From an uncultured Clostridia bacterium (lineage in GTDB: Bacteria > Bacillota > Clostridia > TANB77 > CAG-508), in the NCBI GenBank assembly GCA_947624925.1, contig CANQMG010000001.1:1-41940 (forward strand): a DNA stretch of 41,940 nucleotides, read 5' to 3'. The notes under the pieces are model-generated. The model was not told the origin of the DNA and made no database searches. It saw nothing but the letters and a program-made list of their open reading frames with translations. Shown here piece by piece: positions 1-41,142 of the stretch. Both the position numbers and the translations under genes were made by a program. Every line of letters starts with the position of its first letter. Position 1 is the stretch's first letter.

Positions 1-210
1 TCTATTTTATTGTAAGAGCCGCGTAAGCGACCAAACGTAACGAAGTGGAGTGCGAATTGGAGCAACTTACAGATATTTTTTTATTTAATAAAGCAGAATT
101 ATTTAAAATATTTAATAATTTATTTTATAATGCTACATTTATTCATAATTATTAATCGTAAGTTGCGACCCCAAGGCTCCTTAAAGAATAAAATAGAATT
201 AAAATTTTAT
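1..210. repeat. Copy A of a ~225-bp non-coding inverted-repeat element (left terminus cut off by the window edge); complete copy B at 5126-5349
   Basis: 1-210 is colinear with 5140-5349. GC-rich block 21-74 is base-for-base identical to 5161-5214, while the AT-rich centre differs by scattered substitutions/indels. Right terminal repeat aataaaatagaattaaaattttat at 187-210. No ORF with start plus RBS. Confidence 0.8.
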
Positions 211-235: not shown

Positions 236-296
236 TGTAGGTGGGCAAGCACAAGACTTGCCCCTACAATTTTTTAATGTTTTTATATGTTTTATA
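236..296. repeat. Hairpin module copy A (TGTAGG-tg-GGCAAG / loop CACAAGA / CTTGCCCCTACA) plus conserved tail GTTTTTATATGT
   Basis: 236-249 pairs with 257-268. Related copies at 5044-5096, 5382-5436 and, with a nested insertion, 28191-28283. Here it is followed directly by ATTTTTT, so it could also terminate plus-strand transcripts. Confidence 0.7.
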
Positions 297-4032: not shown

Positions 4033-4136
4033 TTTTATCCCCCCAAGACCTATAGCTTTATAAATATTGTTTAAGTTATATTAGTTATAATTTAAACTGT
4101 TATTATTTATTTTTGCTATTGTTTTTTTCTGGTTTA

Positions 4137-4142
4137 ATTATA
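4137..4142 (-). promoter_or_regulatory. Candidate -10 hexamer (TATAAT on the minus strand) for nrdDG
   Basis: Perfect TATAAT read on the minus strand. It would put the TSS near 4130 and the 4166-4179 palindrome centre near -42. AT-rich DNA gives many chance -10-like hexamers. Confidence 0.3.
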
Positions 4143-4165
4143 TAGATAATTTCCGGACATATGTT

Positions 4166-4179
4166 GTTGCAATTGCAAC
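4166..4179. promoter_or_regulatory. Perfect 14-bp palindrome GTTGCAATTGCAAC (TGTTGC-N4-GCAAC), candidate Crp/Fnr-type operator upstream of nrdDG
   Basis: Perfect dyad in the nrdD/crp divergent intergenic region. The same half-sites recur at 4363-4378. Confidence 0.45.
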
Positions 4180-4362
4180 TTTTTTTTATTTTTTTATTTC
4201 AAATTTGCCAAACTTATAATTTAGACGGATTTTATTAATTATTACATTTTTATTACAAAAAAAATTTTAGTTGTCATTTTAACTTTTTCTCTTCTTTTTG
4301 CGACACAATCTAATGTTTAGGTTTTTTCCAAATAATGTTTTTGAAAAAATTTTATGTTTTTT

Positions 4363-4378
4363 TGTTGCTTTTGCAACA
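4363..4378. promoter_or_regulatory. Second dyad TGTTGC-TTTT-GCAACA, just upstream of the Crp/Fnr gene start
   Basis: Same half-sites as 4166-4179 with the same 4-nt spacer. Lies 31 nt upstream of the ATG at 4409 and just upstream of a TATAAT at 4388-4393. Confidence 0.4.
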
Positions 4379-4408
4379 TATGTATATTATAATGCTATTG
4401 GTGATTAT

Positions 4409-5043: not shown

Positions 5044-5096
5044 GAGCAGGCACAAGACCTGCCCCTACAGCTATTAGGGCATTTTTACATATTTTA
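5044..5096. repeat. Hairpin module copy C (GCAGG / CACAAGA / CCTGC, then CCCTACAG and tail CATTTTTACATATTTT)
   Basis: Starts 3 nt after the crp stop. Shares loop, 3' arm, CTACA and tail with copies at 236-296, 5382-5436 and 28191-28283. Confidence 0.7.
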
Positions 5097-5125: not shown

Positions 5126-5349
5126 CATAAAATTTTAATTCTATTTTATTTATAAGAGCCGCGTAAGCGACCAAACGTAACGAAGTGGAGTGCGAATTGG
5201 AGCAACTTACAGATGTTCTTTTATTTTAAAAAAGTAGAATTGTTTAAAATATTTAATAATTTATTTTATAATCTACATTTATTCATTTTTTTAAATCGTA
5301 AGTTGCGACACCAAGGCTCTTTAAAGATAAAATAGAATAAAATTTTATG
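5126..5349. repeat. Copy B (complete) of the ~225-bp inverted-repeat element with GC-rich asymmetric core
   Basis: 23/24-nt terminal inverted repeat (5126-5149 vs 5327-5349). Inner pairings 5154-5160/5315-5321 and 5202-5210/5298-5306. Unpaired 41-nt GC-rich block 5161-5201. No ORF. Confidence 0.8.
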
Positions 5350-5381
5350 ATTTATAAATTTGGGTAAATTCTTTAGAGCCT

Positions 5382-5436
5382 GGGCAGGCACAAGACCTGC
5401 CCCTACAGATGTTGTAACGTTTTTATGTATTTTAAA
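5382..5436. repeat. Hairpin module copy B (GGGCAGG / CACAAGA / CCTGCCC, CTACAG, tail GTTTTTATGTATTTT)
   Basis: Perfect 7-bp GC-rich stem 5382-5388/5396-5402. Same spacing from the element end (via TTTATAAATTTGGGTAAATTCT) as in copy A. Confidence 0.75.
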
Positions 5437-5567
5437 ATTTTGCACAATTAATAAACATATTTAAATGCCTATATTTTTTCTATTTCTTTTATTTTGGAAA
5501 TTCAAATTATCTGATTTAAATTTTTTGATAATTTGTTTAGAATTTAATTTATTTTTGATGTACATCT

Positions 5568-8618: not shown

Positions 8619-9005
8619 TTACATATTTTCTAGTTTTTTTATTAAAGCTCTAAGCAATTTTATGTATTCATTTTTTATGTTATTGTATATCTGCCTTGAA
8701 ATATCCTGATTATATAAATGAGATAATTGATTTCTAGATAACATCATATCTATCCACTTTTCTCCATCATCAATTATACCCTGTTTAAATCCTTGTTGGA
8801 TAACTTCTCTTGGACTACCAGTTTTTTCTGATATTCCCATATAGTCTAAATAATCTTTTATAGTTTTCCATGCAAGTTCAAATGTAAATTCAAATCTATG
8901 TAATATTCCATCAATTACTATTTCTGTGCATTCCTCGGTTAACGCTTCTTCTAATTTATTATATGCTTTTATTAAATCTTCTTTTCTTTGTATAAACCTT
9001 TCCAT
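8619..9005 (-). CDS. HEPN-domain protein of the HI0074 / nucleotidyltransferase substrate-binding family (HepT-like toxin)
   Basis: 128 aa. FEFTFELAWKTIKDYL core and R-x4-H motif (RNQLSH). 1-nt overlap with the upstream MNT gene. Confidence 0.85.
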   Translation of the reverse strand: MERFIQRKEDLIKAYNKLEEALTEECTEIVIDGILHRFEFTFELAWKTIKDYLDYMGISEKTGSPREVIQQGFKQGIIDDGEKWIDMMLSRNQLSHLYNQDISRQIYNNIKNEYIKLLRALIKKLENM

Positions 9006-9292
9006 TATATTTCAACTCCTTCATTCAATATAGAGTTAATTATATTTTTTCCTAGATTTTCATTCATAAAAAGTAAATCAATAGTGTATGGTATATCTAG
9101 TTTATCTATATCGTTTCTAATTAAAAACTTTTCTTTCTCTGTAACATTTCCAAATACAGCTATATCTATATCTGAATTTGGTTTATATTTTTCCTTGGCT
9201 CTTGAGCCAAATAATATAAATTTGTAATTGTATTTGTTTGATATTTCTTTTATCATTCTATATATTTTTTCAGACAAACCATACATATCCAT
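9005..9292 (-). CDS. Minimal nucleotidyltransferase (MNT, HI0073-like; MntA-type antitoxin)
   Basis: 95 aa. GS-x10-DxD pattern (LFGSRAKEKYKPNSDIDIAV). Confidence 0.85.
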   Translation of the reverse strand: MDMYGLSEKIYRMIKEISNKYNYKFILFGSRAKEKYKPNSDIDIAVFGNVTEKEKFLIRNDIDKLDIPYTIDLLFMNENLGKNIINSILNEGVEI

Positions 9293-17528: not shown

Positions 17529-20500
17529 TTACATTATTACTTCTACATCATATATTTTATTATTATCTATTAATCTTATTTTTTTATCTTCTATTTCTTC
17601 TCCATTAATTTTTAACTGTGTTATACCTGTAGATTTTTGATTTGGATTTTCTATTTTTATATTATATAAACTACTTTTATATCTATATTGTATACTGTAA
17701 TTTTTCCAATCTGATGGAATACATGGTTTAATCTCCATAATATTATTATAAATTTTAAGACCTAATATATTTTCTATACCAGCTTTATATAACCAGCTAC
17801 TAGAACCTGTATACCATGTCCAACCTCCTCTACCTAATAAGTTTCCGCTTCCATATATATCTGCTGCTACAACATATGGCTCTACTTTGTAAATCTTTAC
17901 AGCATCTATTGTTTTAGAATGTTCTATTGGATTTATAAGTCTAAAGTATTCATCTGCTTTTTGTGCATTTTCTAAAATACAAAAAGCAATTATACTCCAT
18001 ATTGCACCATGTGTGTATTGTCCACCATTTTCTCTTACTCCTGGCAAATATTTTTGTATATATCCTGGATTAATTTTGCCATGCTCAAATGGTGGTGTTA
18101 GAAGTTTTATTATTCCTGCTTCTTTATCTATTAAATATTTTTCCATATTTTCCATTGCTATATATTTTTTATCATTGTCTCCTGCATTTGATATTACTGA
18201 CCAACTTTGTGCTATATTATCTATTTTACATTCCTCATTTGTTATACTTCCTAATATATCTCCTTCATCTGTAAATGCTCTTCTAAACCAACTGCCATCC
18301 CATCCATTTGTATTAAGATTTTTCTTTAATTTTATTTTTATTTGTTCATATTTTTTTACTAATTCTTCATCGTTTCTATATTTTAAAATATTTATAAATC
18401 TATCTAATATATTATATAAGAAAAATCCAAGCCACACACTTTCTCCTATTCCTTTATTTCCTACATTGCTAAATCCATCATTCCAGTCTCCAGAACCAAT
18501 TTTGGGCAAACCATTTTTACCAAAGTCTAATGACTTTTCTATTGCTTTTAAGCAATGCTTATATATTGTTTCTTTTATATTTGATTCTTCGTATAAATCA
18601 TATCTTTCGTCTTCATCTTGTCCTAGTTTTTCACCTTGTAAATAAGGTACTTCAATATCAAGTATGCTCCTATCTCCTGTAAATTCTATATATTCACACA
18701 CAACATATACTAACCATAATAAATCGTCTGAAAATTTAGTTCTTATTCCTCTTTTAGTTTCGTCATGCCACCAATGCAAAACATCTCCTTCTATAAATTG
18801 ATGGCTAGCATGTTTTATTATTTGATTTTTCATTATTTGAGTATCTATATATTTTAAACCTAATGTATCTTGTAATTGATCTCTAAATCCAAATGCTCCA
18901 CCAGATTGATAGTACCCGCTTCTAGCCCACATTCTAGATACTATGGTTTGATATACTGCCCAACCATTTAATAATATATTTGTTGATTCTACAGGAGTAT
19001 TAACTTGCAATTTTCTTATAAGATTATTCCAATATTGTTTTACTTTATTTAATTCTTCTTTGCATTTATCTATATTTTTATATTTAATTAATATATCTTT
19101 TATTTTTTCTGTATCTTCTTCCACTCCTAGTGCAAAATATATTTCTTTTTCTTCATAGGCATTTAGTTCAATATTTATTTCTATAACCATACATGTTGAT
19201 TTTCCTATACTATCTTTTAAATCTAAATTATTATATAAATAATCTGGACTGTATATATCTCCTTCTCCAAAGAACTTTTCTTTATCTGACATATATGCTT
19301 TTATTTGTTCATTACTTGAAATATATAACAATTCATTTTCTTTTCTATCAAAATATTTTTTTGCATACATATAGTTAAATTCTTTTTTTGCTTCAATATA
19401 ACCATCTGACTTTATTTCATCTTCGTCTAAAACAGGTTTTATATAATAAACTAATTTTAGTCTTCTAGATGATGGCATAGTATTTTTTATTTTTATTAAA
19501 TTAATTTTTAATGAATCTTCATTTGGAACAAATATCTCATCTTCTTGAATTATTCCCATATTGCATTGTATATATTTTGCATAACCAAATCCATATTTAA
19601 CATAATGGGTAAATTTACCACCAATTGTACATATCTCTTTTGTTTCTTCATCTTTTATATAAATTATTTCAGATGGGGTATCTATTATTGGATCATTTGC
19701 CCAAGCTGTAAGTCTATTTAATCTACTATTTTTACTCCATGTATAACCTCCTAAGCTTTCTGTTACAACTGTACCAAATTTTTTATTTGATAATATATGG
19801 CTCCAACATAACGGTGTTGGATTTTCTATACTCGTTTTTATTATATATTCTTTTCCATCTTCACTAAATCCACCATATCCATTATAGTATTTTAAATTTT
19901 TCATATCTATATTAATAATATCTTCTTCTTTAAAATCTATATCTTTTGGCTTTATAACTTCTGGCCTAACTTTATTTTCTTTTAAATATTTTTCTTCTAA
20001 TTCCTCTATATTATCTTTTATATTTCCAAATGTTGCATCGATTACAAAATTTGCTCTTATTGTAAACATTTCTTCATCTTCTATTTCATTTGAATTAATT
20101 ATAAATATTCCTCCAAACGTATTTTTTAAATATTCTATTTGGTTGTTTTGTATCTGAGTTTCTATTGCATCTTTTACATATTTTTCATATACATTCTGTT
20201 CTTTATTTAATACAACTAATTCAATATTTATATTTTTAGCTCTATAATATTCATAAGCCTTTAATATATTTTCTATAACATATATTTCACTTATTTCCTT
20301 AATTTTAACAAGCAATATTGGTAATTCTCCAGAAATTCCATATTTCCACAAATCACTTTGTAAATAATTTTTGTTTTGTATATTTTTTAAATATACACTT
20401 CTTAATGGATTGTTAAATATTAAATAAGAAAGCAATCTTTGGTATTCTATTATATCATCGCCACTAACTCTTAGATATCTTGCTTCTTCTTCCGTTCTTA

Positions 20501-23500
20501 CCTTTGATAATTCAAATGTCCTTTTTACCTTTTCTTCATTTTTATATTCTCTTATATTATTTTCTACAACTTGTTTACTTTCTGAGACTGCAATTACTAG
20601 ATTTAATTCTATCTCTTCTTCTGGTTTTATACTTACAGTTTTTTTAAGTGCAATTATTGGATCAGTTACTAAACCAATATTGTTACTAAACGGCTCAGAT
20701 TTTTCTATCTTTCTAGGTATATTATGTTCTAATCTACCATAAAGTTTTTCTTTATTTATTTCAAACTCTAATTCCCCTAAGGTATCAACACTTGCAAATA
20801 AATTTACACCAAGGTATATATCTTTACCATTTCTATCATTTCTTTTTATAATTAAATAATCTTTATTTTCTGCTATTTCATATTTTAGAAATAAATTATT
20901 AAATGCTTTATGTGCATAATCTTGTCCTTGAGTAGATAGAACTGGCTCTAAAACACCTGTTACTTCTAATATTTCTTCAAAATTGCCATTATTTTTTATT
21001 TTAATATTTCTTATTTCTATTGCATCATTAGGATCTGTAATGATTTTAGTTTTTGTCTGTATATTTTCATCTATTCTTTTAAACATATCCATATCAGGCG
21101 AAAATTCTATTTTATACTTATCTGGCTTTTTACCTAAATTTGTATATGTGTTTGTCCATATTTTTTTTGTTCTAGTATTTTTTATATAGAATAATATACC
21201 TTGATTTGTTTCATCTGTTCTTTTAAATCTATTAATTAATATATCTTTATATTTACTAAATCCTAATCCGAAATCATTTACACATACTGTATATTTTTCA
21301 TTAGATATTACATTAGAAATATTTAAATCTCTATTAATATCTTTATATTCTCTTATAGAATAATTATTATATCCTAAATATTTTATCTTTTGAACTTTTT
21401 CTTTTTTATTTTTAGTAATTATAACATTATCTGGCATTCTTTCTTGTAATAATATATCTATTGATTGTATTTGAGGATTATCCATAAACCTTTTTGGTAA
21501 TATATTATTATTAATTAAATTATTAATAGAAAGCAATATTAATGCTTGATGATGCGCCATATATGTTTTTACTATAACGTTATCTTTATTTATAGGTATT
21601 CTAGCTGGAGTATAATCTATTGCTTCATAAAATCCATATTTATTATACATACCTAAATCTTGCAATCTTTTTAGATTTTTTAGTACACCTTTTGTATCAT
21701 CTCCTATTGCAAGAATAGTTCCATAAGATGATACTACCATTTCATCAGCTAAACCTCTTTTTAAACCTAGCCATGGTATTCCAAATGCCTTATACTGATA
21801 ATTATTATTTAAGTCTTTTAAATTAAAGGCAGATTCAGATATTCCCCATGGAATACCTAGCTTTTCGCAATATTTTTTTTGAGACATTATCATAAATTTA
21901 CATGATTCGTCTAATAAACTACCTGGATATTTAATAATATTTATATTTGGCATTAAGTATTCAAAAGCTGTTCCAGACCAGGATATAAGTCCCTTAAATC
22001 TATTTAGTAAAGTAAGAGTTCTACTTAGATTATGCCAATGCTCTACAGGAATATCTTTTTTTGCTATAGCTATAAGGCTTGCTTGTCTTGCTTCTGATGC
22101 TAGCAAATCATAATATGAATCCGTTAATTTATTTTCTTCAGTATTAAATCCTATTGATAACAATCTTTTTTTCTTATCATATAAATAACTAAAATCTGTA
22201 TTATTTATTATTGTGCTTACTGAATTAATCATATTATTAATTTCATATTTGTTTTCATCACTTTCTTCCATATATATTTGTTTTAAAAAACTTTTTAAAA
22301 CATACATATATCCTACAAAATTTCCACTATCTACTGTTGATACATAATTTGGTTTTAATGGCTCAAGAGTTTTTATATTATACCAGTTATATAAATGTCC
22401 ATTCCATTTTGAAAGTTTTTCAATTGTTATTAACATATTTTTTATAAGTTCTAATGCTTTTCCCTTTTCTATAAATCTAAGATCATATGCCGAAATAACA
22501 CACATAACACCTAACCCTATATTAGTAGATGAAGTTCTATCTACAACTTTCTTTACTCTATCTTCCTGGTAATTGTCTGGTGGAAGATAATTATTCTGTT
22601 CATTTATATATTCTTCAAAAAAGCTCCATGTTCTTCTTGCAATGTCTAATATATATTCTTCATCCTTTTTACTAATATGTTGTACTTTATTTAAATTAAT
22701 ACTTATATACCAAGCTGTCAGCGGTGCTAAAATCCATAAAATTGACAGAATATATAGCCAGAAGAATTCCGAAATATATTTACATGCAATTATAAAAGAA
22801 AAAATCCCAATAATTAAATTTACTGATATTGCTTTGTAATAAGATTTTAAGCTAGATTCCGCATTTCTTTCTGATTCATCTGATGTTGTCCATTCTAGTA
22901 AATTTTGTTTAGATTTATACATTCTGTATAATGTTCTTATTATTGCATCTAAAGATATATATGCTTTATATGGCAATAAAGATAAACTTATAACTGCTCT
23001 TAGTATACTTCCCTTTATACCAGAAATATTTCTTGCAAAATTGTATTGTTTCTCCATTCCTTGTTTTTTAAATACTATATAATTTATAATATCTAAAATT
23101 GGCGTTATAAATATTGATATTAATACTATAAGTGTCAAATAATTTAAATTTATATTAAATATTATTTTTGTTATTTCAATAAATATAATTTCTAAAACTA
23201 TATTAGTTTCTAACAAACTTCTTCTTAAATTATCTATAATTTTGAATTTTGATATCTCATTTATAGGATTATTTATTATTTTCCCATCTTTATCTTTTAT
23301 TTTTGATTTAAGCCATCTTATAATTTGCCAATCTCCTCTAATCCATCTATGAAGTCTAGATATAAAAGAATTATATTTAGTTGGGTAACCATCTAAAAGC
23401 ATAATATCAGATGCTAAGCCACATCTTAAATAGATTCCTTCCAATAAATCATGACTTAAAACAGTATTTTCTGGAATTACATTTTTTAAAACCTTAGAAA

Positions 23501-25628
23501 AAACCTCTAAATTATATATTCCTTTACCTGTGTAAATTCCTTCTCCAAAGTTATCTTGATAAATATCAGAAATAGCATTTGTATAAAGATCTGTCCCTCC
23601 AAGTCCTGCAAATATTTTTGTAAATAAACTTTTTACACATATATTTAAATTTACTCCAACACGTGGCTGTAATATTCCATACCCATCAATTACTATGTTT
23701 TTTTCTTTATCAATTACAGGTTCATTTAATATGTGTGCCATAGCACCTACTAATTTTAGCCCAGATTCTAATACTAGTTCTGTATCTGCATCTAGTGTTA
23801 TAATATATTTAATTTTAGGTATTTGCTGTTTTATTGTATTTGCATAAAATATATCTTTTATATTTCCCAAAAGATATTCATTAAATTGTGTAAGTAATCC
23901 TCTTTTTCTTTCCCAACCTAAATAACATTTTTCACTTTGGTTCCAACTTCTTTTTCTGTATATAAAATTAAATTTATTAAATTCTTCATCTGGATATTTT
24001 TTATTTAATTTTTCAGATATTTCTATTCCTTTTTGGATTACTTCTTTGTCAAAATCCTCATTTATTTTATCTGAAGAACTGCAATCTCCAAGAAGTGTAA
24101 AATATATATTATCTGATTTATTTCCAAGGTAATATACTTCTAATTTTTTCATCATCTCTTCTACTTGTTTAGCAGATTTTAAAATTGTTGGAATAACAAC
24201 CATTGTTTTATATTCATTAGGAATTCCCTGTGTAAAATCTAATTTAGGTATTATTTTACTTTTTATAGTTTTATTAAGTATATACTGCATAACATCCATA
24301 ACAATTTGAATAATTGGAATAAATATAAGAAGCATCTCTATTATTGATATAATCAGTCTATTTGTTTTTAAAATTATATATATTCCAGTTAAAAGTGTTA
24401 TTAAGCTAGATATTAAAAGTATAGTTCCAACATACATTCTTTCTTTATTTTTAATTTTATTATTTTGCTTTTGCCCTAAACTATTTTTTAAATTCTCTAT
24501 TCCATCACCAATAAGAAAATATCCAATATGAGTTTTTTTAGTTTTTACTTGTTTTTGATTTTCTTTTTCTGATAATTCTAATGCTTTAGTTGCAACATAT
24601 ATTTCTGAAGTTTTAGTTTTCTTAGAAAGTTCCTTTATTTTATTTCTATAATAATCTTTAGTTTTATTATCCATCTTGTTATATACACCTGCAGGATCAT
24701 TTTTTAATATTTCTTCAACACCATTTATTTTTTCAAATATTTCTAAGAAATTAGTCCTTTGTAAATCCTTTATACTTTTTATACAATTTCCTATTGTAAC
24801 CTTATTTAATGCAATATCAAAATGTTCTTTTTTTATTATCTCAGAAATACTAGAACCTATTTTTTCAACTTGTTCTTCTAAAATTCTTAAATATGGCATA
24901 GCCTGTCTTCCATATAATTTTAATTTATATGATAAATACTCTATAAAAGTATTTTTCATTTGATTTGGTTGTATTGAACTATTACTATTTACAAAATGAT
25001 ACTTAAATTTTTGACTGCTTGTGTCTTTACTCTCTACAAGTCTTTCAATTAAACTTTCTACCTTATATTTTTGTATTTGGGAATAATATATTTTCTCACA
25101 TACATCTCTTATATGCTCAATTATAGAAATATAAAAAAATACAGATATATTCCATATTTCTTCCATATTTAATGTCTTTTTTCTTTGATATGCTGTTATG
25201 AAATCTTTCAAATTAGCATCATCTATTTTTCCGTCTGTTGCTCCAACAATTTGCGCTGCTATAACATATACTCTTGCAAATCCTTTATAACTTCCATTTG
25301 ACAGTCCAGGAAAACTTTTATATTTTTTTAATGTCATTTCTTTTTTTATATTTTTATATGTTTCTTCAATTATATAATAATTATCTAAAAGCCACTCTCC
25401 AGCAGGATGTATATTAATTTTTAATTTCATATGATTATTTAGAATTTCATATGTTTTTGTAATAAATTTAAAATTATCATCTAATCTTGGAATTGGATAC
25501 GTTTGTTTATCTGAATTTTTCTTAAGCATATTGTCTGATGCAAATTTTTCTAGGTAATTTTCTAATTGATATTTATCTAAAACAGCTCCTTTTATATTTA
25601 AAAATTTTTTTGAATTCAATTTTTCCAC
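17529..25628 (-). CDS. Giant multidomain glycosyltransferase/phosphorylase, cyclic beta-1,2-glucan synthase (Cgs/NdvB/ChvB)-like
   Basis: Uninterrupted 2699-aa ORF. Several TM helices flank a GT-A-type domain (VVIPT..., ITLDADTE). C-terminal GH94-type phosphorylase region with GSGDWNDGFS. Confidence 0.8.
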   Translation of the reverse strand: MEKLNSKKFLNIKGAVLDKYQLENYLEKFASDNMLKKNSDKQTYPIPRLDDNFKFITKTYEILNNHMKLKINIHPAGEWLLDNYYIIEETYKNIKKEMTLKKYKSFPGLSNGSYKGFARVYVIAAQIVGATDGKIDDANLKDFITAYQRKKTLNMEEIWNISVFFYISIIEHIRDVCEKIYYSQIQKYKVESLIERLVESKDTSSQKFKYHFVNSNSSIQPNQMKNTFIEYLSYKLKLYGRQAMPYLRILEEQVEKIGSSISEIIKKEHFDIALNKVTIGNCIKSIKDLQRTNFLEIFEKINGVEEILKNDPAGVYNKMDNKTKDYYRNKIKELSKKTKTSEIYVATKALELSEKENQKQVKTKKTHIGYFLIGDGIENLKNSLGQKQNNKIKNKERMYVGTILLISSLITLLTGIYIILKTNRLIISIIEMLLIFIPIIQIVMDVMQYILNKTIKSKIIPKLDFTQGIPNEYKTMVVIPTILKSAKQVEEMMKKLEVYYLGNKSDNIYFTLLGDCSSSDKINEDFDKEVIQKGIEISEKLNKKYPDEEFNKFNFIYRKRSWNQSEKCYLGWERKRGLLTQFNEYLLGNIKDIFYANTIKQQIPKIKYIITLDADTELVLESGLKLVGAMAHILNEPVIDKEKNIVIDGYGILQPRVGVNLNICVKSLFTKIFAGLGGTDLYTNAISDIYQDNFGEGIYTGKGIYNLEVFSKVLKNVIPENTVLSHDLLEGIYLRCGLASDIMLLDGYPTKYNSFISRLHRWIRGDWQIIRWLKSKIKDKDGKIINNPINEISKFKIIDNLRRSLLETNIVLEIIFIEITKIIFNINLNYLTLIVLISIFITPILDIINYIVFKKQGMEKQYNFARNISGIKGSILRAVISLSLLPYKAYISLDAIIRTLYRMYKSKQNLLEWTTSDESERNAESSLKSYYKAISVNLIIGIFSFIIACKYISEFFWLYILSILWILAPLTAWYISINLNKVQHISKKDEEYILDIARRTWSFFEEYINEQNNYLPPDNYQEDRVKKVVDRTSSTNIGLGVMCVISAYDLRFIEKGKALELIKNMLITIEKLSKWNGHLYNWYNIKTLEPLKPNYVSTVDSGNFVGYMYVLKSFLKQIYMEESDENKYEINNMINSVSTIINNTDFSYLYDKKKRLLSIGFNTEENKLTDSYYDLLASEARQASLIAIAKKDIPVEHWHNLSRTLTLLNRFKGLISWSGTAFEYLMPNINIIKYPGSLLDESCKFMIMSQKKYCEKLGIPWGISESAFNLKDLNNNYQYKAFGIPWLGLKRGLADEMVVSSYGTILAIGDDTKGVLKNLKRLQDLGMYNKYGFYEAIDYTPARIPINKDNVIVKTYMAHHQALILLSINNLINNNILPKRFMDNPQIQSIDILLQERMPDNVIITKNKKEKVQKIKYLGYNNYSIREYKDINRDLNISNVISNEKYTVCVNDFGLGFSKYKDILINRFKRTDETNQGILFYIKNTRTKKIWTNTYTNLGKKPDKYKIEFSPDMDMFKRIDENIQTKTKIITDPNDAIEIRNIKIKNNGNFEEILEVTGVLEPVLSTQGQDYAHKAFNNLFLKYEIAENKDYLIIKRNDRNGKDIYLGVNLFASVDTLGELEFEINKEKLYGRLEHNIPRKIEKSEPFSNNIGLVTDPIIALKKTVSIKPEEEIELNLVIAVSESKQVVENNIREYKNEEKVKRTFELSKVRTEEEARYLRVSGDDIIEYQRLLSYLIFNNPLRSVYLKNIQNKNYLQSDLWKYGISGELPILLVKIKEISEIYVIENILKAYEYYRAKNINIELVVLNKEQNVYEKYVKDAIETQIQNNQIEYLKNTFGGIFIINSNEIEDEEMFTIRANFVIDATFGNIKDNIEELEEKYLKENKVRPEVIKPKDIDFKEEDIINIDMKNLKYYNGYGGFSEDGKEYIIKTSIENPTPLCWSHILSNKKFGTVVTESLGGYTWSKNSRLNRLTAWANDPIIDTPSEIIYIKDEETKEICTIGGKFTHYVKYGFGYAKYIQCNMGIIQEDEIFVPNEDSLKINLIKIKNTMPSSRRLKLVYYIKPVLDEDEIKSDGYIEAKKEFNYMYAKKYFDRKENELLYISSNEQIKAYMSDKEKFFGEGDIYSPDYLYNNLDLKDSIGKSTCMVIEINIELNAYEEKEIYFALGVEEDTEKIKDILIKYKNIDKCKEELNKVKQYWNNLIRKLQVNTPVESTNILLNGWAVYQTIVSRMWARSGYYQSGGAFGFRDQLQDTLGLKYIDTQIMKNQIIKHASHQFIEGDVLHWWHDETKRGIRTKFSDDLLWLVYVVCEYIEFTGDRSILDIEVPYLQGEKLGQDEDERYDLYEESNIKETIYKHCLKAIEKSLDFGKNGLPKIGSGDWNDGFSNVGNKGIGESVWLGFFLYNILDRFINILKYRNDEELVKKYEQIKIKLKKNLNTNGWDGSWFRRAFTDEGDILGSITNEECKIDNIAQSWSVISNAGDNDKKYIAMENMEKYLIDKEAGIIKLLTPPFEHGKINPGYIQKYLPGVRENGGQYTHGAIWSIIAFCILENAQKADEYFRLINPIEHSKTIDAVKIYKVEPYVVAADIYGSGNLLGRGGWTWYTGSSSWLYKAGIENILGLKIYNNIMEIKPCIPSDWKNYSIQYRYKSSLYNIKIENPNQKSTGITQLKINGEEIEDKKIRLIDNNKIYDVEVIM

Positions 25629-27463: not shown

Positions 27464-27700
27464 TTATTCTATTGGCACACTAGTTTCATATAAAAAATCC
27501 GCACACATATCTATATCATTATCCCACGAAACCGTTCCAAAATTAATTTTTACCTTTGAAAAAACCGATTTATCTTTTAATATCTTAAATATCCCCTTAT
27601 CAAGATGCGGTTTCATATCTTTAACTCTTATTTCTCCATTATTAAAAGTTAATTTTAATTTATAATCATCTAAAGTACATACATCAACTATTTCTTTCAT
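27464..27700 (-). CDS. DUF2442 domain protein
   Basis: Sequence pattern typical of DUF2442 (YKLKLTFNNGEIRVKDM...FGTVSWDNDIDMCADFLY). Start at ATG 27700 (SD GGGGGA). Confidence 0.75.
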   Translation of the reverse strand: MKEIVDVCTLDDYKLKLTFNNGEIRVKDMKPHLDKGIFKILKDKSVFSKVKINFGTVSWDNDIDMCADFLYETSVPIE

Positions 27701-27716
27701 TATTTCCCCCATAAAT

Positions 27717-27974
27717 TTAATTTAGTGGTTTTATTTTGAATAATTTTTCACTATTTTTTGATAATTCCCAATCTGCTTCTAATTCATCTTTATGTATCTC
27801 TGTCCACGCTTGAACTAATTTTAATTGTTTAGAAGGTAATTCTCCATCAATTATAATGCCTTCTAAATTCAACTTAGCCTTATATTTATTATAGTATACA
27901 TGAATATGTGGTGGATCATGGTCTATATAATACATTCGTATTATAATCCCAAAAAACATACTAATTGTTGGCAT
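27717..27974 (-). CDS. DUF4160 domain protein
   Basis: MPTISMFFGIIIRMYYIDHDPPHIHVYY is the canonical DUF4160 N-terminus. Start at ATG 27974 (SD AAAGGAGAA). Confidence 0.8.
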   Translation of the reverse strand: MPTISMFFGIIIRMYYIDHDPPHIHVYYNKYKAKLNLEGIIIDGELPSKQLKLVQAWTEIHKDELEADWELSKNSEKLFKIKPLN

Positions 27975-28039
27975 ATTTTTTCTCCTTTCTATTTTAACAT
28001 TATATAGTTTATTTGGCAACTTTTTATGGGAAAAATTTA

Positions 28040-28190: not shown

Positions 28191-28283
28191 GGGCAGGCTA
28201 AGAACCCCCAGTCAGCCTTCGGCTGACAGCCCCCTTATTAAAGGGGCTGTTGACCTGCCCCTACATATGTTTTTACATATTCA
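28191..28283. repeat. Hairpin module copy D with the loop replaced by a 56-nt GC-rich insert containing two stem-loops
   Basis: GGGCAGG (28191-28197) and CCTGCCC (28254-28260) enclose GTCAGCC-ttc-GGCTGAC (28211-28227) and AGCCCC-cttattaaa-GGGGCT (28228-28248). CTACA and tail TGTTTTTACATATT follow, as in the other copies. Confidence 0.75.
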
Positions 28284-40812: not shown

Positions 40813-41142
40813 TTATTGAATTAAATTTTTAGAAATTAATCTTTTTGAATGAAATATTCTTTGAATGTAAATACAACTTTCCTTTATTTGATAAATAATT
40901 CGGTAAGATTTATAAAAAATTTCCCTAATATATTCTTTATTATATTCTGGAACTTTTCTTCCCATATATGGTAAAATAATAAGATTTAAAATTTTTTTAC
41001 CAATTTCTTGTTTTGTTTTAATTGCATAAAACTCAGAATTGATTTCTATATATGTATATATCTGTTCTATGTCAATATCGGCATCTTTAGATAATATGAT
41101 TAAATTATTTTTATCCAAATACTTCCTCAAAAGTATATACAT
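40813..41142 (-). CDS. RelE/ParE-family toxin
   Basis: C-terminal pattern PYMGRKVPEY...REIFYKSYRIIYQIKESCIYIQRIFHSKR is typical of ParE/RelE. The start is uncertain: ATG 41142 overlaps the antitoxin by 32 nt, and the in-frame TTG 41118 is an alternative. Confidence 0.7.
   Translation of the reverse strand: MYILLRKYLDKNNLIILSKDADIDIEQIYTYIEINSEFYAIKTKQEIGKKILNLIILPYMGRKVPEYNKEYIREIFYKSYRIIYQIKESCIYIQRIFHSKRLISKNLIQ

What the first reader, a model, noticed from the sequence alone, without database searches (positions are those of the whole stretch)
5126..5349. A ~225-bp non-coding element, present twice, with terminal inverted repeats and an invariant asymmetric GC-rich core
Seen in the sequence: 5126-5349 is bounded by a 23/24-nt inverted repeat (cataaaattttaattctattttat vs ataaaatagaataaaattttatg). 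Inside it, AAGAGCC (5154-5160) pairs with GGCTCTT (5315-5321), and GCAACTTAC (5202-5210) pairs with GTAAGTTGC (5298-5306). The left arm carries an extra 41-nt GC-rich block (5161-5201, GCGTAAGCGACCAAACGTAACGAAGTGGAGTGCGAATTGGA). That block contains CGTAAG/CGTAAC repeats, two TGGAG repeats and a CGC-GTAA-GCG mini-hairpin, and it has no partner in the right arm, which has only GACACCAA there. Copy A (1-210, cut by the window edge) keeps the 54-nt core 21-74 identical to 5161-5214. The ~85-nt AT-rich centre differs at about 1 position in 8. Neither copy has a credible ORF. Inference: a plain MITE would be symmetric. Selective conservation of an asymmetric GC-rich core in a very AT-rich genome points to a structured RNA or a protein-recognition site acted on in trans. 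I do not recognise it as an Rfam family or as the end of a known IS.
Basis: partly seen in the sequence, partly recalled or inferred. Interest (0 to 1): 0.72.

Follow-up and report, generated by a model that had tools for sequence, protein, structure and literature searches.

The report
Mobile hairpin repeat with conserved core
The 224-bp stretch is one copy of a previously undescribed small non-coding hairpin element of low-GC gut Clostridia that comes and goes between genes in related genomes and keeps a GC-rich core almost unchanged; what the core does is not known.

Summary
The element occurs twice, at 1-210 (cut by the window edge) and 5126-5349. It has 23/24 inverted termini, two inner helices and an identical GC-rich core.

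It is more than a local duplication. The same core was found in five other lineages of uncultured low-GC Clostridia, embedded in 24-49-bp complementary arms. The arm sequences differ between lineages. The five innermost arm pairs are always canonical but change on both sides.

The core, GCGTAAGCGACCAAA...TGCGA(A)YTGGAGCAAYTT...AARTTGCGACAC(A)CAA, is 85-100% conserved. Its terminal loop varies from 17 to 87 nt.

Close relatives lack the element at the same intergenic sites. In the adk-map spacer it is present in either orientation or absent. Every copy lies in intergenic DNA, and six of the seven start or end within 60 nt of a stop codon. No ORF is conserved. No Rfam family, plasmid, phage or viral contig matches.

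My best reading is a non-autonomous, MITE-like or bcr1-like mobile palindromic element whose core is the selected cis-acting module. Whether that module acts as RNA or DNA is unresolved, because no strand bias is seen. No partner enzyme and no secure target duplication were found. It is a new family of a known kind and of moderate interest.

The parts
5126..5349 (+). Copy B, complete long-form element
   Evidence: model R1 scores 114.6 bits over 5140-5337
1..210 (+). Copy A, left arm cut by the window edge
   Evidence: 62-nt block 13-74 identical to 5153-5214
5126..5160 (+). Left arm (P1 5' strand), including the inner helix AAGAGCC
   Evidence: 39 Watson-Crick matches to the reverse complement of the right arm
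5315..5349 (+). Right arm (P1 3' strand), including GGCTCTT
5161..5201 (+). Conserved asymmetric core: hairpin GC-GTAA-GC (5161-5168), GACCAAA, a variable stretch CGTAACGAAGTGGAG, then TGCGAATTGGA
   Evidence: Invariant or nearly invariant in L001, L002, L003, L004 and L050
5202..5210 (+). P2 5' strand GCAACTTAC
   Evidence: Pairs with 5298-5306; pair 5 is C-G in five copies and T-A in two
5211..5297 (+). AT-rich terminal region of P2, 87 nt here and 17-20 nt in the other lineages; not conserved
5298..5306 (+). P2 3' strand GTAAGTTGC
5307..5314 (+). Conserved 3' joiner GACACCAA (GACACACAA in L003, L004 and L050)
5350..5440 (+). 3' flank duplicated together with the element (equals 211-300 at copy A); contains the GC hairpin repeat 5382-5408
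5046..5070 (+). Second copy of the GC hairpin repeat, 338 nt upstream of the one at 5384. The two bracket copy B as direct repeats. Further copies lie at 241-268 and, degenerate, at 28242-28265.
   Evidence: Family D2

Best explanation
The element belongs to a new family of small, non-coding, non-autonomous palindromic interspersed elements. These are MITE-like and closest in behaviour to bcr1 of the Bacillus cereus group and to SPRITE of pneumococcus. The family occurs in low-GC, mostly gut-derived, uncultured Clostridia.

Anatomy, as shown by the sequences:
- A long AT-rich helix P1, 24-49 bp.
- An asymmetric internal loop. Its 5' side carries a GC-GUAA-GC hairpin, GACCAAA, a 15-23-nt variable stretch and UGCGA(A)YUGGA.
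- A 9-bp helix P2 with a free terminal region of 17-87 nt.
- A 3' joiner, GACAC(A)CAA.

Behaviour, as shown:
- The element is gained or lost at orthologous intergenic sites between genomes whose flanking proteins are 89-96% identical.
- It occurs in either orientation.
- It always sits between genes, and six of the seven copies start or end within 60 nt of a stop codon.
- It carries no conserved ORF.

Inferred mechanism:
- An enzyme encoded elsewhere moves it. That enzyme would recognise the conserved core presented on a hairpin, which would explain why the core sequence and the arm complementarity are kept while the arm sequence drifts.
- Once inserted, the long hairpin is tolerated behind genes and may act like a terminator. 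In L001 and L002 it is framed by A and T runs.

Within this window, the second copy may have spread with its 3' flank by recombination at the flanking GC hairpin repeats rather than by transposition.
For: Family membership:
- Seven placements in six lineages share the core. Model R1 scores them at 78-145 bits and finds nothing else in the 14 related loci it was run over, tens of kb per search.
- Only 2 of 185,579 species-representative genomes hold the 21-mer. Those two are different species with the same element at different loci.

Gain and loss:
- The crp-ftsH spacer is 632 nt with the element in the window. It is 119-134 nt without it in relatives whose Crp is 89-90% identical.
- The prs-rpsU spacer is 145 nt in L016. 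In the window the element already lies within the first 330 nt after prs.
- The adk-map spacer holds the element in sense orientation in L004 and in antisense orientation in L050. It is empty in L044-L049, L051 and L064-L072, whose Map is 91-96% identical.
- L030, L031 and L033 end inside a copy, as assemblies do at repeats.

Possible target duplication:
- The L044 empty site reads taa-TATATATT-AAAAAATTTAAAG.
- The L004 filled site has TATATATT on both sides of the insert.

Structure:
- P1 inner pairs 3-7 are canonical in all 7 copies, with 2-3 pair types each.
- The P1 strands are 39-43% identical, against 84-100% for the core parts.

Other:
- There is no conserved ORF.
- The window encodes no transposase, integrase or reverse transcriptase.
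- Known elements of this kind fold into long stem-loops, lack a transposase and show compensatory changes (Delihas 2011, PMC3184786, read).
Against: - No autonomous partner with the same ends or core was found.
- The target duplication is seen at one site only, in a self-complementary AT-rich sequence where chance repeats are common. No clear duplication flanks the copies in the window, L001 or L002.
- Copy number looks low.
- In classical MITEs the termini are the conserved part. Here they are the least conserved part.
- The two window copies share about 90 nt beyond the right terminus, so they do not show that the TIR-bounded unit is what moves.
- In L004 the left flank also mirrors native right-flank sequence, which a simple cut-and-paste insertion does not explain.
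Confidence: 0.5

Rival explanations
1. It is a stand-alone structured non-coding RNA, for example a small ribozyme, a protein-binding RNA or a guide-like RNA. The core is the functional fold. P1 and P2 are only scaffolding helices, and the copies spread by horizontal transfer and duplication.
For: - Conservation follows the pattern typical of structured RNAs. Unpaired core nucleotides are invariant, helices covary and the terminal loop varies in length.
- There is a GNRA-type tetraloop hairpin, GC-GUAA-GC.
- The fold z-score is about -6.
- L001, L002 and the window carry a consensus-like outward promoter, GCGACA-17 nt-TATAAT or TAAAAT (and direct reading).
Against: - Helix mismatches show no strand bias: 1 G-U on the + strand against 4 on the - strand.
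- The two strands fold about equally well in 4 of 6 lineages.
- Orientation relative to neighbouring genes is not fixed. The element is antisense inside a co-directional gene pair in L003 and antisense in L050.
- No promoter is conserved in all lineages.
- Covariation inside the core proper rests on about two events.
- No Rfam family matches, even at E = 10.
Confidence: 0.22
2. It is a DNA-level site. A hairpin or cruciform presents repeated motifs to a DNA-binding enzyme such as a recombinase, an HUH nuclease or a replication initiator. The motifs are GCGAC(A)CCAA twice and RCGAAKTGGAG twice, the latter about one helical turn apart.
For: - The sequence contains direct repeats: ACGAAGTGGAGT next to GCGAATTGGAGC (9 of 12 identical), and GCGACCAAA matched by GCGACACCAA (direct reading).
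- The arms are almost free of wobble-type mismatches.
- Single-stranded DNA folds into the same architecture with z = -7.06.
- The element works in either orientation.
Against: - Tandem Repeats Finder does not report the 12-nt repeat at score 30.
- The first TGGAG copy is not kept in L003 or L004.
- The P2 loop holds no conserved motif that could be a nick site.
- No candidate enzyme gene lies nearby in any of the seven contexts.
Confidence: 0.13
3. It is a distant, AT-rich relative of a conserved structured element of about 240 nt found in Rhizobiales conjugative plasmids. That element lies upstream of and antisense to DUF736 genes, near ardC-like and tra genes. It might be a single-strand-specific structure of the leading region.
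For: - BLAST with the L001 copy hit 14 Rhizobium and related plasmids over 35 nt at 83% identity.
- Outside the aligned stretch, that region also has a preceding hairpin, the complementary strand GAAAGTTGCG for a P2-like helix, and a closing helix.
- Model R1 scores it at 20 bits.
- The Rhizobiales family is strongly structured: 61 predicted pairs, 25 with compensatory changes, and G-U pairs on the matching strand.
- It occurs in 680 plasmid records.
Against: - The BLAST E-value is 5.
- A model built from Rhizobiales sequences alone finds only the L001-type copy, at 13 bits and E = 1.7. That test is circular, because the family was picked by BLAST with L001.
- The invariant Rhizobiales blocks CGCGAGGAATG, CAGGGG and GCCGTTGCGG are absent from the Clostridial element.
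- The genomic contexts have nothing in common.
Confidence: 0.07
4. It is merely a local segmental duplication of an intergenic terminator region and has no family beyond this genome.
For: The two window copies share their 3' flank. Direct GC hairpin repeats bracket copy B.
Against: The same core occurs in five other lineages, at unrelated loci and with different arms.
Confidence: 0.02

Closest known systems
bcr1, a Group A repeat of the Bacillus cereus group (Okstad 2004; Klevan 2007; summarised in Delihas 2011, PMC3184786)
   Same: About 150-nt non-coding interspersed repeat in Firmicutes. Its distribution is not conserved between close strains. It folds into a stable structure kept by compensatory changes. 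It has no transposase.
   Different: There is no sequence similarity. bcr1 has tens of copies per genome, a constant 5-bp direct repeat and documented transcription. Here copy number looks low, a flanking duplication is seen once only, and transcription is untested. bcr1 forms a cruciform with two stem-loops, whereas this element is one long hairpin with an asymmetric loop.
Bacterial MITEs such as Correia/nemis, RUP and ERIC (PMC3184786)
   Same: Terminal inverted repeats around a non-coding centre. A long stem-loop at the RNA level. Intergenic location. Presence/absence polymorphism. Long and short forms that differ by an internal insert, as in ERIC.
   Different: In MITEs the termini are conserved because the transposase binds them, and the centre drifts. 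Here the termini drift while staying complementary, and the centre is conserved across species. No parent IS is known.
[quoted passage not shown]
   Same: Small mobile repeat that looks like a terminator hairpin and sits at gene 3' ends. L001 and L002 have A and T runs on either side, and L003 a T run after the right arm.
   Different: SPRITE has no large conserved internal loop. The window copies lack a clear T run.
REP/REPIN elements mobilised by RAYT transposases (GTAG/CGTC-tagged palindromes, PMC3733652)
   Same: Extragenic palindromes, and long hairpins when paired.
   Different: REPs are 20-40 bp, GC-rich and symmetric. The neighbouring GC hairpin repeat of this window fits that description, being GTAG-tagged on the - strand. 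The 224-bp element does not fit it.
Integron attC sites
   Same: Recognised as folded single strands. Structure is conserved more than sequence. The terminal structure varies in length.
   Different: The element has no R/L boxes (RYYYAAC/GTTRRRY), no cassette array and no integrase nearby. Its unpaired block of 41 nt is far larger than extrahelical bases.

Membership tests
MITE (non-autonomous DNA transposon) | Terminal inverted repeats | tested here: met
   23/24 in the window; 24-49 matched bases in every lineage
MITE (non-autonomous DNA transposon) | No transposase ORF; small size | tested here: met
   130-224 bp; no conserved ORF
MITE (non-autonomous DNA transposon) | Target-site duplication of constant length | tested here: inconclusive
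   An 8-10-bp TATATATT duplication at L004 compared with the empty site L044. The target is self-complementary and AT-rich. No clear duplication was found in the window, L001, L002 or L050.
MITE (non-autonomous DNA transposon) | Insertion polymorphism and multiple copies | tested here: met
   Empty orthologous sites; two copies in the window; contigs ending inside copies
MITE (non-autonomous DNA transposon) | Termini shared with an autonomous IS | tested here: not met
   No plasmid, phage or viral match. No transposase in the window. The IS110 in L028 shares nothing with the element. Whole genomes could not be searched.
Any Rfam 15 RNA family | Covariance-model score at or above the gathering threshold | tested here: not met
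   0 hits at gathering over the window. Only chance-level hits at E up to 10 on the long and short forms.
REP/REPIN | Short GC-rich palindrome with a GTAG or CGTC tag, paired in inverted orientation | tested here: not met
   The element is AT-rich and asymmetric and has no tag. The adjacent GC hairpin repeat does carry GTAG on the - strand.
Retron ncRNA, IS110 bridge RNA, TnpB/IscB omega RNA | Encoded next to its reverse transcriptase, recombinase or nuclease gene | tested here: not met
   All seven contexts are housekeeping genes: prs, crp, ftsH, guaA, HAD, sua5, adk and map.
Integron attC | R''/R' core sites, cassette array, intI | tested here: not met
   Direct reading; neither the motifs nor an array is present.
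Intrinsic terminator or SPRITE-like element | Stable hairpin followed by a T run at a gene 3' end | tested here: inconclusive
   L001 and L002 have A and T runs around the hairpin, and L003 a T run after it. The window copies and L004 do not. Termination was not tested.
Rhizobiales plasmid element upstream of DUF736 | Invariant blocks CGCGAGGAATG, CAGGGG and GCCGTTGCGG, with the nested helices of alignment A5 | tested here: not met
   The blocks are absent. The cross-search scores 13 bits, E = 1.7.

The most novel reading that the evidence does not exclude
The conserved core is a new class of structured RNA, or a single-strand DNA fold, carried on a mobile hairpin scaffold. It could be a small self-cleaving or guide-like RNA used for the element's own mobility. 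It might have an ancient relative in the structured element upstream of DUF736 on Rhizobiales conjugative plasmids.
Probability: 0.15. Interest if true: 0.8.

Novelty: new member of a known kind. Interest (0 to 1): 0.42.

Why it matters
Small palindromic repeats are well catalogued in cultured model bacteria. They are almost unexplored in the uncultured low-GC Clostridia of animal guts.

This family inverts the usual conservation pattern: the core is fixed and the termini are free but complementary. That makes it a clean test case for asking what is selected in such elements, whether an RNA fold, a single-strand DNA fold or a protein site.

If a partner enzyme is found, it would define a new pairing of a mobile element with its recognition site. 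If the core proves catalytic or guide-like, it would be a new RNA class.

There is also a practical consequence. These repeats break metagenome assemblies, and several contigs examined here end inside copies.

Tried and rejected
- Rfam at gathering and at E up to 10, on both the long and short forms: nothing.
- tRNA/tmRNA scan: nothing.
- BLAST against plasmids and phages: no match at 1e-5. At E up to 10 there were only chance-level hits.
- Four viral-contig pattern scans: zero hits, or coding-sequence coincidences only.
- Full-text search for the core strings in papers: none. A literature search for a described Clostridial MITE of this kind: none.
- Exact-protein look-ups for two window proteins failed, so the left half of copy A could not be recovered.
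- A CCA/UGG hairpin with the first TGGAG was considered and dropped. It cannot form in L050 and is weakened in L003 and L004.
- An RNAalifold suggestion that AGUGC pairs with the 3' arm was dropped, because L001 and L002 cannot form it.
- A kink-turn at the P2 junction was considered. The sequence does not fit the GA/AG consensus. This rests on my own knowledge, not on a test.
- A small peptide gene was rejected. The 40-aa ORF exists in copy B only.
- Iteron-type tandem repeats were not supported by Tandem Repeats Finder.
- Homology to the Rhizobiales plasmid element was pursued through and left unproven.
- Retron, bridge-RNA, omega-RNA and attC readings were rejected for lack of the defining neighbour genes or motifs.

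Full report
**1. The observation**

Reading the window and checking each string by script confirms the finding to the base.
- The termini are 23/24 inverted repeats.
- AAGAGCC pairs with GGCTCTT, and GCAACTTAC with GTAAGTTGC.
- The 41-nt block 5161-5201 is 51% G+C in a 26% G+C window.
- GACACCAA lies opposite that block.
- 21-74 is identical to 5161-5214. The identical run is really 62 nt, 13-74 = 5153-5214.
- The centre is 73/83 identical.

The repeat finder and a pairwise alignment show two copies at 87% identity. Their homology continues about 90 nt past the right terminus, through a GC hairpin.

The hairpin is highly non-random. Its z-score is -6.05 on the + strand and -5.06 on the - strand. 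There is no tRNA, no Rfam family and no ORF shared by both copies.

**2. Relatives elsewhere**

One scan of 185,579 species-representative genomes with a 21-mer of the core found two loci. Both are rabbit-gut MAGs labelled uncultured Clostridia (L001 and L002).

A metagenome scan with a different part of the core found two more, L003 and L004. Following the neighbouring genes gave another copy, L050, and partial copies at the ends of contigs L030, L031 and L033.

These relatives are short forms of 130-150 nt. Each has:
- a long AT-rich helix;
- the invariant GCGTAAGCGACCAAA;
- a variable stretch of 15-23 nt;
- TGCGA(A)YTGGA;
- a 9-bp helix GCAAYTTNC/GNAARTTGC closed by only 17-20 nt, against 87 nt in the window;
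- GACAC(A)CAA, and then the other strand of the long helix.

A covariance model built from them (R1) scores all copies at 78-145 bits. It finds nothing else in the 14 related loci it was run over, tens of kb per search.

Plasmids, phages and viral contigs hold no copy.

**3. What is conserved**

In a hand-made structural alignment, the GNRA-type hairpin and GACCAAA are 100% identical between lineages. The middle block is 91% identical and the P2 strands 84-87%. The inner seven bases of the arms are only 39-43% identical.

The five innermost arm pairs are nevertheless canonical in all seven copies, with two or three pair types each. P2 has one clean C-G to T-A exchange and one variable pair.

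Further out, each lineage has its own arm sequence, and the two arms match over 24-49 bases. About 18-20 nt on either side of the core are still recognisably homologous between lineages (TATTTTGAA... and ...TGAAAAAATA). This stretch includes a tandem GA/GA mismatch kept in L001, L002, L003 and L050.

The asymmetric core is the selected part, and the arms are selected only for pairing.

**4. RNA or DNA?**

This could not be decided.
- Transition-type mismatches in the arms are 1 for the + strand and 4 for the - strand.
- Folding energies of the two strands are similar in four of six lineages.
- Single-stranded DNA folds into the same architecture with z = -7.06.
- RNAalifold on six sequences finds only two pairs with double changes inside the core region.
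- Orientation relative to neighbours is not fixed. The element is sense to the upstream gene in window copy B, L001, L002 and L004. It is antisense between two co-directional genes in L003 and antisense in L050.

**5. Mobility**

The window is ordinary chromosome. It carries prs, nrdG, nrdD, crp, ftsH, tilS, dnaB, gdpP and similar genes, and no transposase, integrase or reverse transcriptase.
- **crp-ftsH.** Relatives whose Crp is 89-90% identical have the same gene order, but their crp-ftsH spacer is 119-134 nt instead of 632 nt. Their prs-rpsU spacer is 145 nt, with no element.
- **guaA.** A strain with GuaA 96% identical to that of L001 lacks both the element and the adjacent HAD gene.
- **adk-map.** This spacer is the clearest case. 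L004 has the element in sense orientation. L050, with Map 94% identical, has a different family member in antisense orientation. L044-L049 (93%), L051 (96%) and L064-L072 (91%) have spacers of 10-57 nt without it.
- **Empty versus filled site.** The L044 empty site reads taa-TATATATT-AAAAAATTTAAAG. The filled L004 site has TATATATT on both sides of the insert. That is consistent with an 8-10-bp target duplication. The target is self-complementary and AT-rich, though, and ten further bases on the left mirror the native right flank, which I cannot explain.

All seven placements are intergenic. Six of them start or end within 60 nt of a stop codon; copy A lies about 120 nt from the prs stop. In L001 the element fills the whole 156-nt gap between two convergent genes and is framed by A and T runs.

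**6. Interpretation**

The behaviour is that of a small non-autonomous mobile palindromic element. The nearest described kinds are bcr1, MITEs with long stem-loops, and the terminator-like SPRITE (Delihas 2011, PMC3184786).

It differs from a textbook MITE in that the termini are the least conserved part and the centre the most conserved. I take the core to be the cis-acting module recognised in trans on a hairpin scaffold. That step is inference.

No partner enzyme was found, and whole genomes could not be searched.

In this window the second copy shares its 3' flank, and direct copies of a GC hairpin repeat bracket copy B. Recombination, rather than transposition, may therefore have made the second copy.

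**7. A lead that stayed unproven**

At E up to 10, BLAST of the short form hit Rhizobium plasmids over 35 nt.

That region belongs to a non-coding element of about 240 nt, present in 680 plasmid records. It lies upstream of and antisense to DUF736 genes, near ardC-like and tra genes. It has no Rfam match but strong covariation: 61 pairs, 25 of them compensatory.

It shares with the Clostridial element a hairpin, the motif AACGNAGTGGAG, GGAGC followed by a P2-like helix, and a closing helix.

However, a model built only from Rhizobiales sequences reaches just 13 bits, E = 1.7, and only on the L001-type copy that had selected the family in the first place. The invariant Rhizobiales blocks are also missing from our element. 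I give true homology about 7%.

**8. Verdict**

The argument against a MITE-like nature is not.

This is a new family of a known kind of element, with an unusual conservation pattern and an unknown molecular role.

Noticed in passing
window 241-268, 5046-5070, 5382-5408, 28242-28265: A GC-rich hairpin repeat, GGGCAGG-CACAAGA-CCTGCCC followed by CTACA. On the - strand it reads GTAG-GGGCAGG..., the form of GTAG-tagged REP palindromes. It was found only in this species (the window and the 99%-identical strain L022), not in relatives at 89-90% Crp identity. Two direct copies 338 nt apart bracket copy B.
   Followed up: partly
L052-L063 (Rhizobiales plasmids, e.g. NZ_CP030762.1 194763-195097): A conserved and strongly covarying non-coding element of about 240 nt, upstream of and antisense to DUF736 genes, next to ardC-like and tra genes. 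It occurs in 680 plasmid records and has no Rfam match. The G-U pairs lie on the strand antisense to DUF736. It might be a single-strand DNA structure of the leading region or an antisense RNA.
   Followed up: partly
L028 8033-9316: An IS110-family transposase gene is inserted upstream of guaA in the L001 species. Contig L029 breaks inside it, so it is probably multi-copy. It shares no sequence with the element.
   Followed up: partly
L002 about 4090-4370; L030 4560-4640: The L002 copy is nested inside a second, larger palindrome (AAAAAGTTCAATATATTTTTTATTAATAAC...). One arm of that outer sequence occurs alone downstream of guaA in L030. This suggests layered palindromic repeats in these genomes.
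   Followed up: no
window 4140-4400: The nrdD-crp intergenic region has two short palindromes, ttgttgcaattgcaac and ttgttgcttttgcaaca. They could be operator sites for the adjacent Crp/Fnr-type regulator or for NrdR.
   Followed up: no
window 17529-25628 (-): An ORF of 2699 aa. It was not examined.
   Followed up: no
window 8619-9292, 27464-28019, 40813-41142: Small toxin-antitoxin-like genes: a HepT-like/nucleotidyltransferase-substrate-binding gene with an unexamined adjacent small ORF (9005-9292), a DUF4160/DUF2442 pair, and a ParE toxin.
   Followed up: no
L004 1990-2010 versus L044 9950-9975: At the filled adk-map site, about ten extra bases left of the insert (ttttattttt) mirror the native right-flank sequence. 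This lengthens the hairpin beyond what a simple target duplication would give. It remains unexplained.
   Followed up: partly
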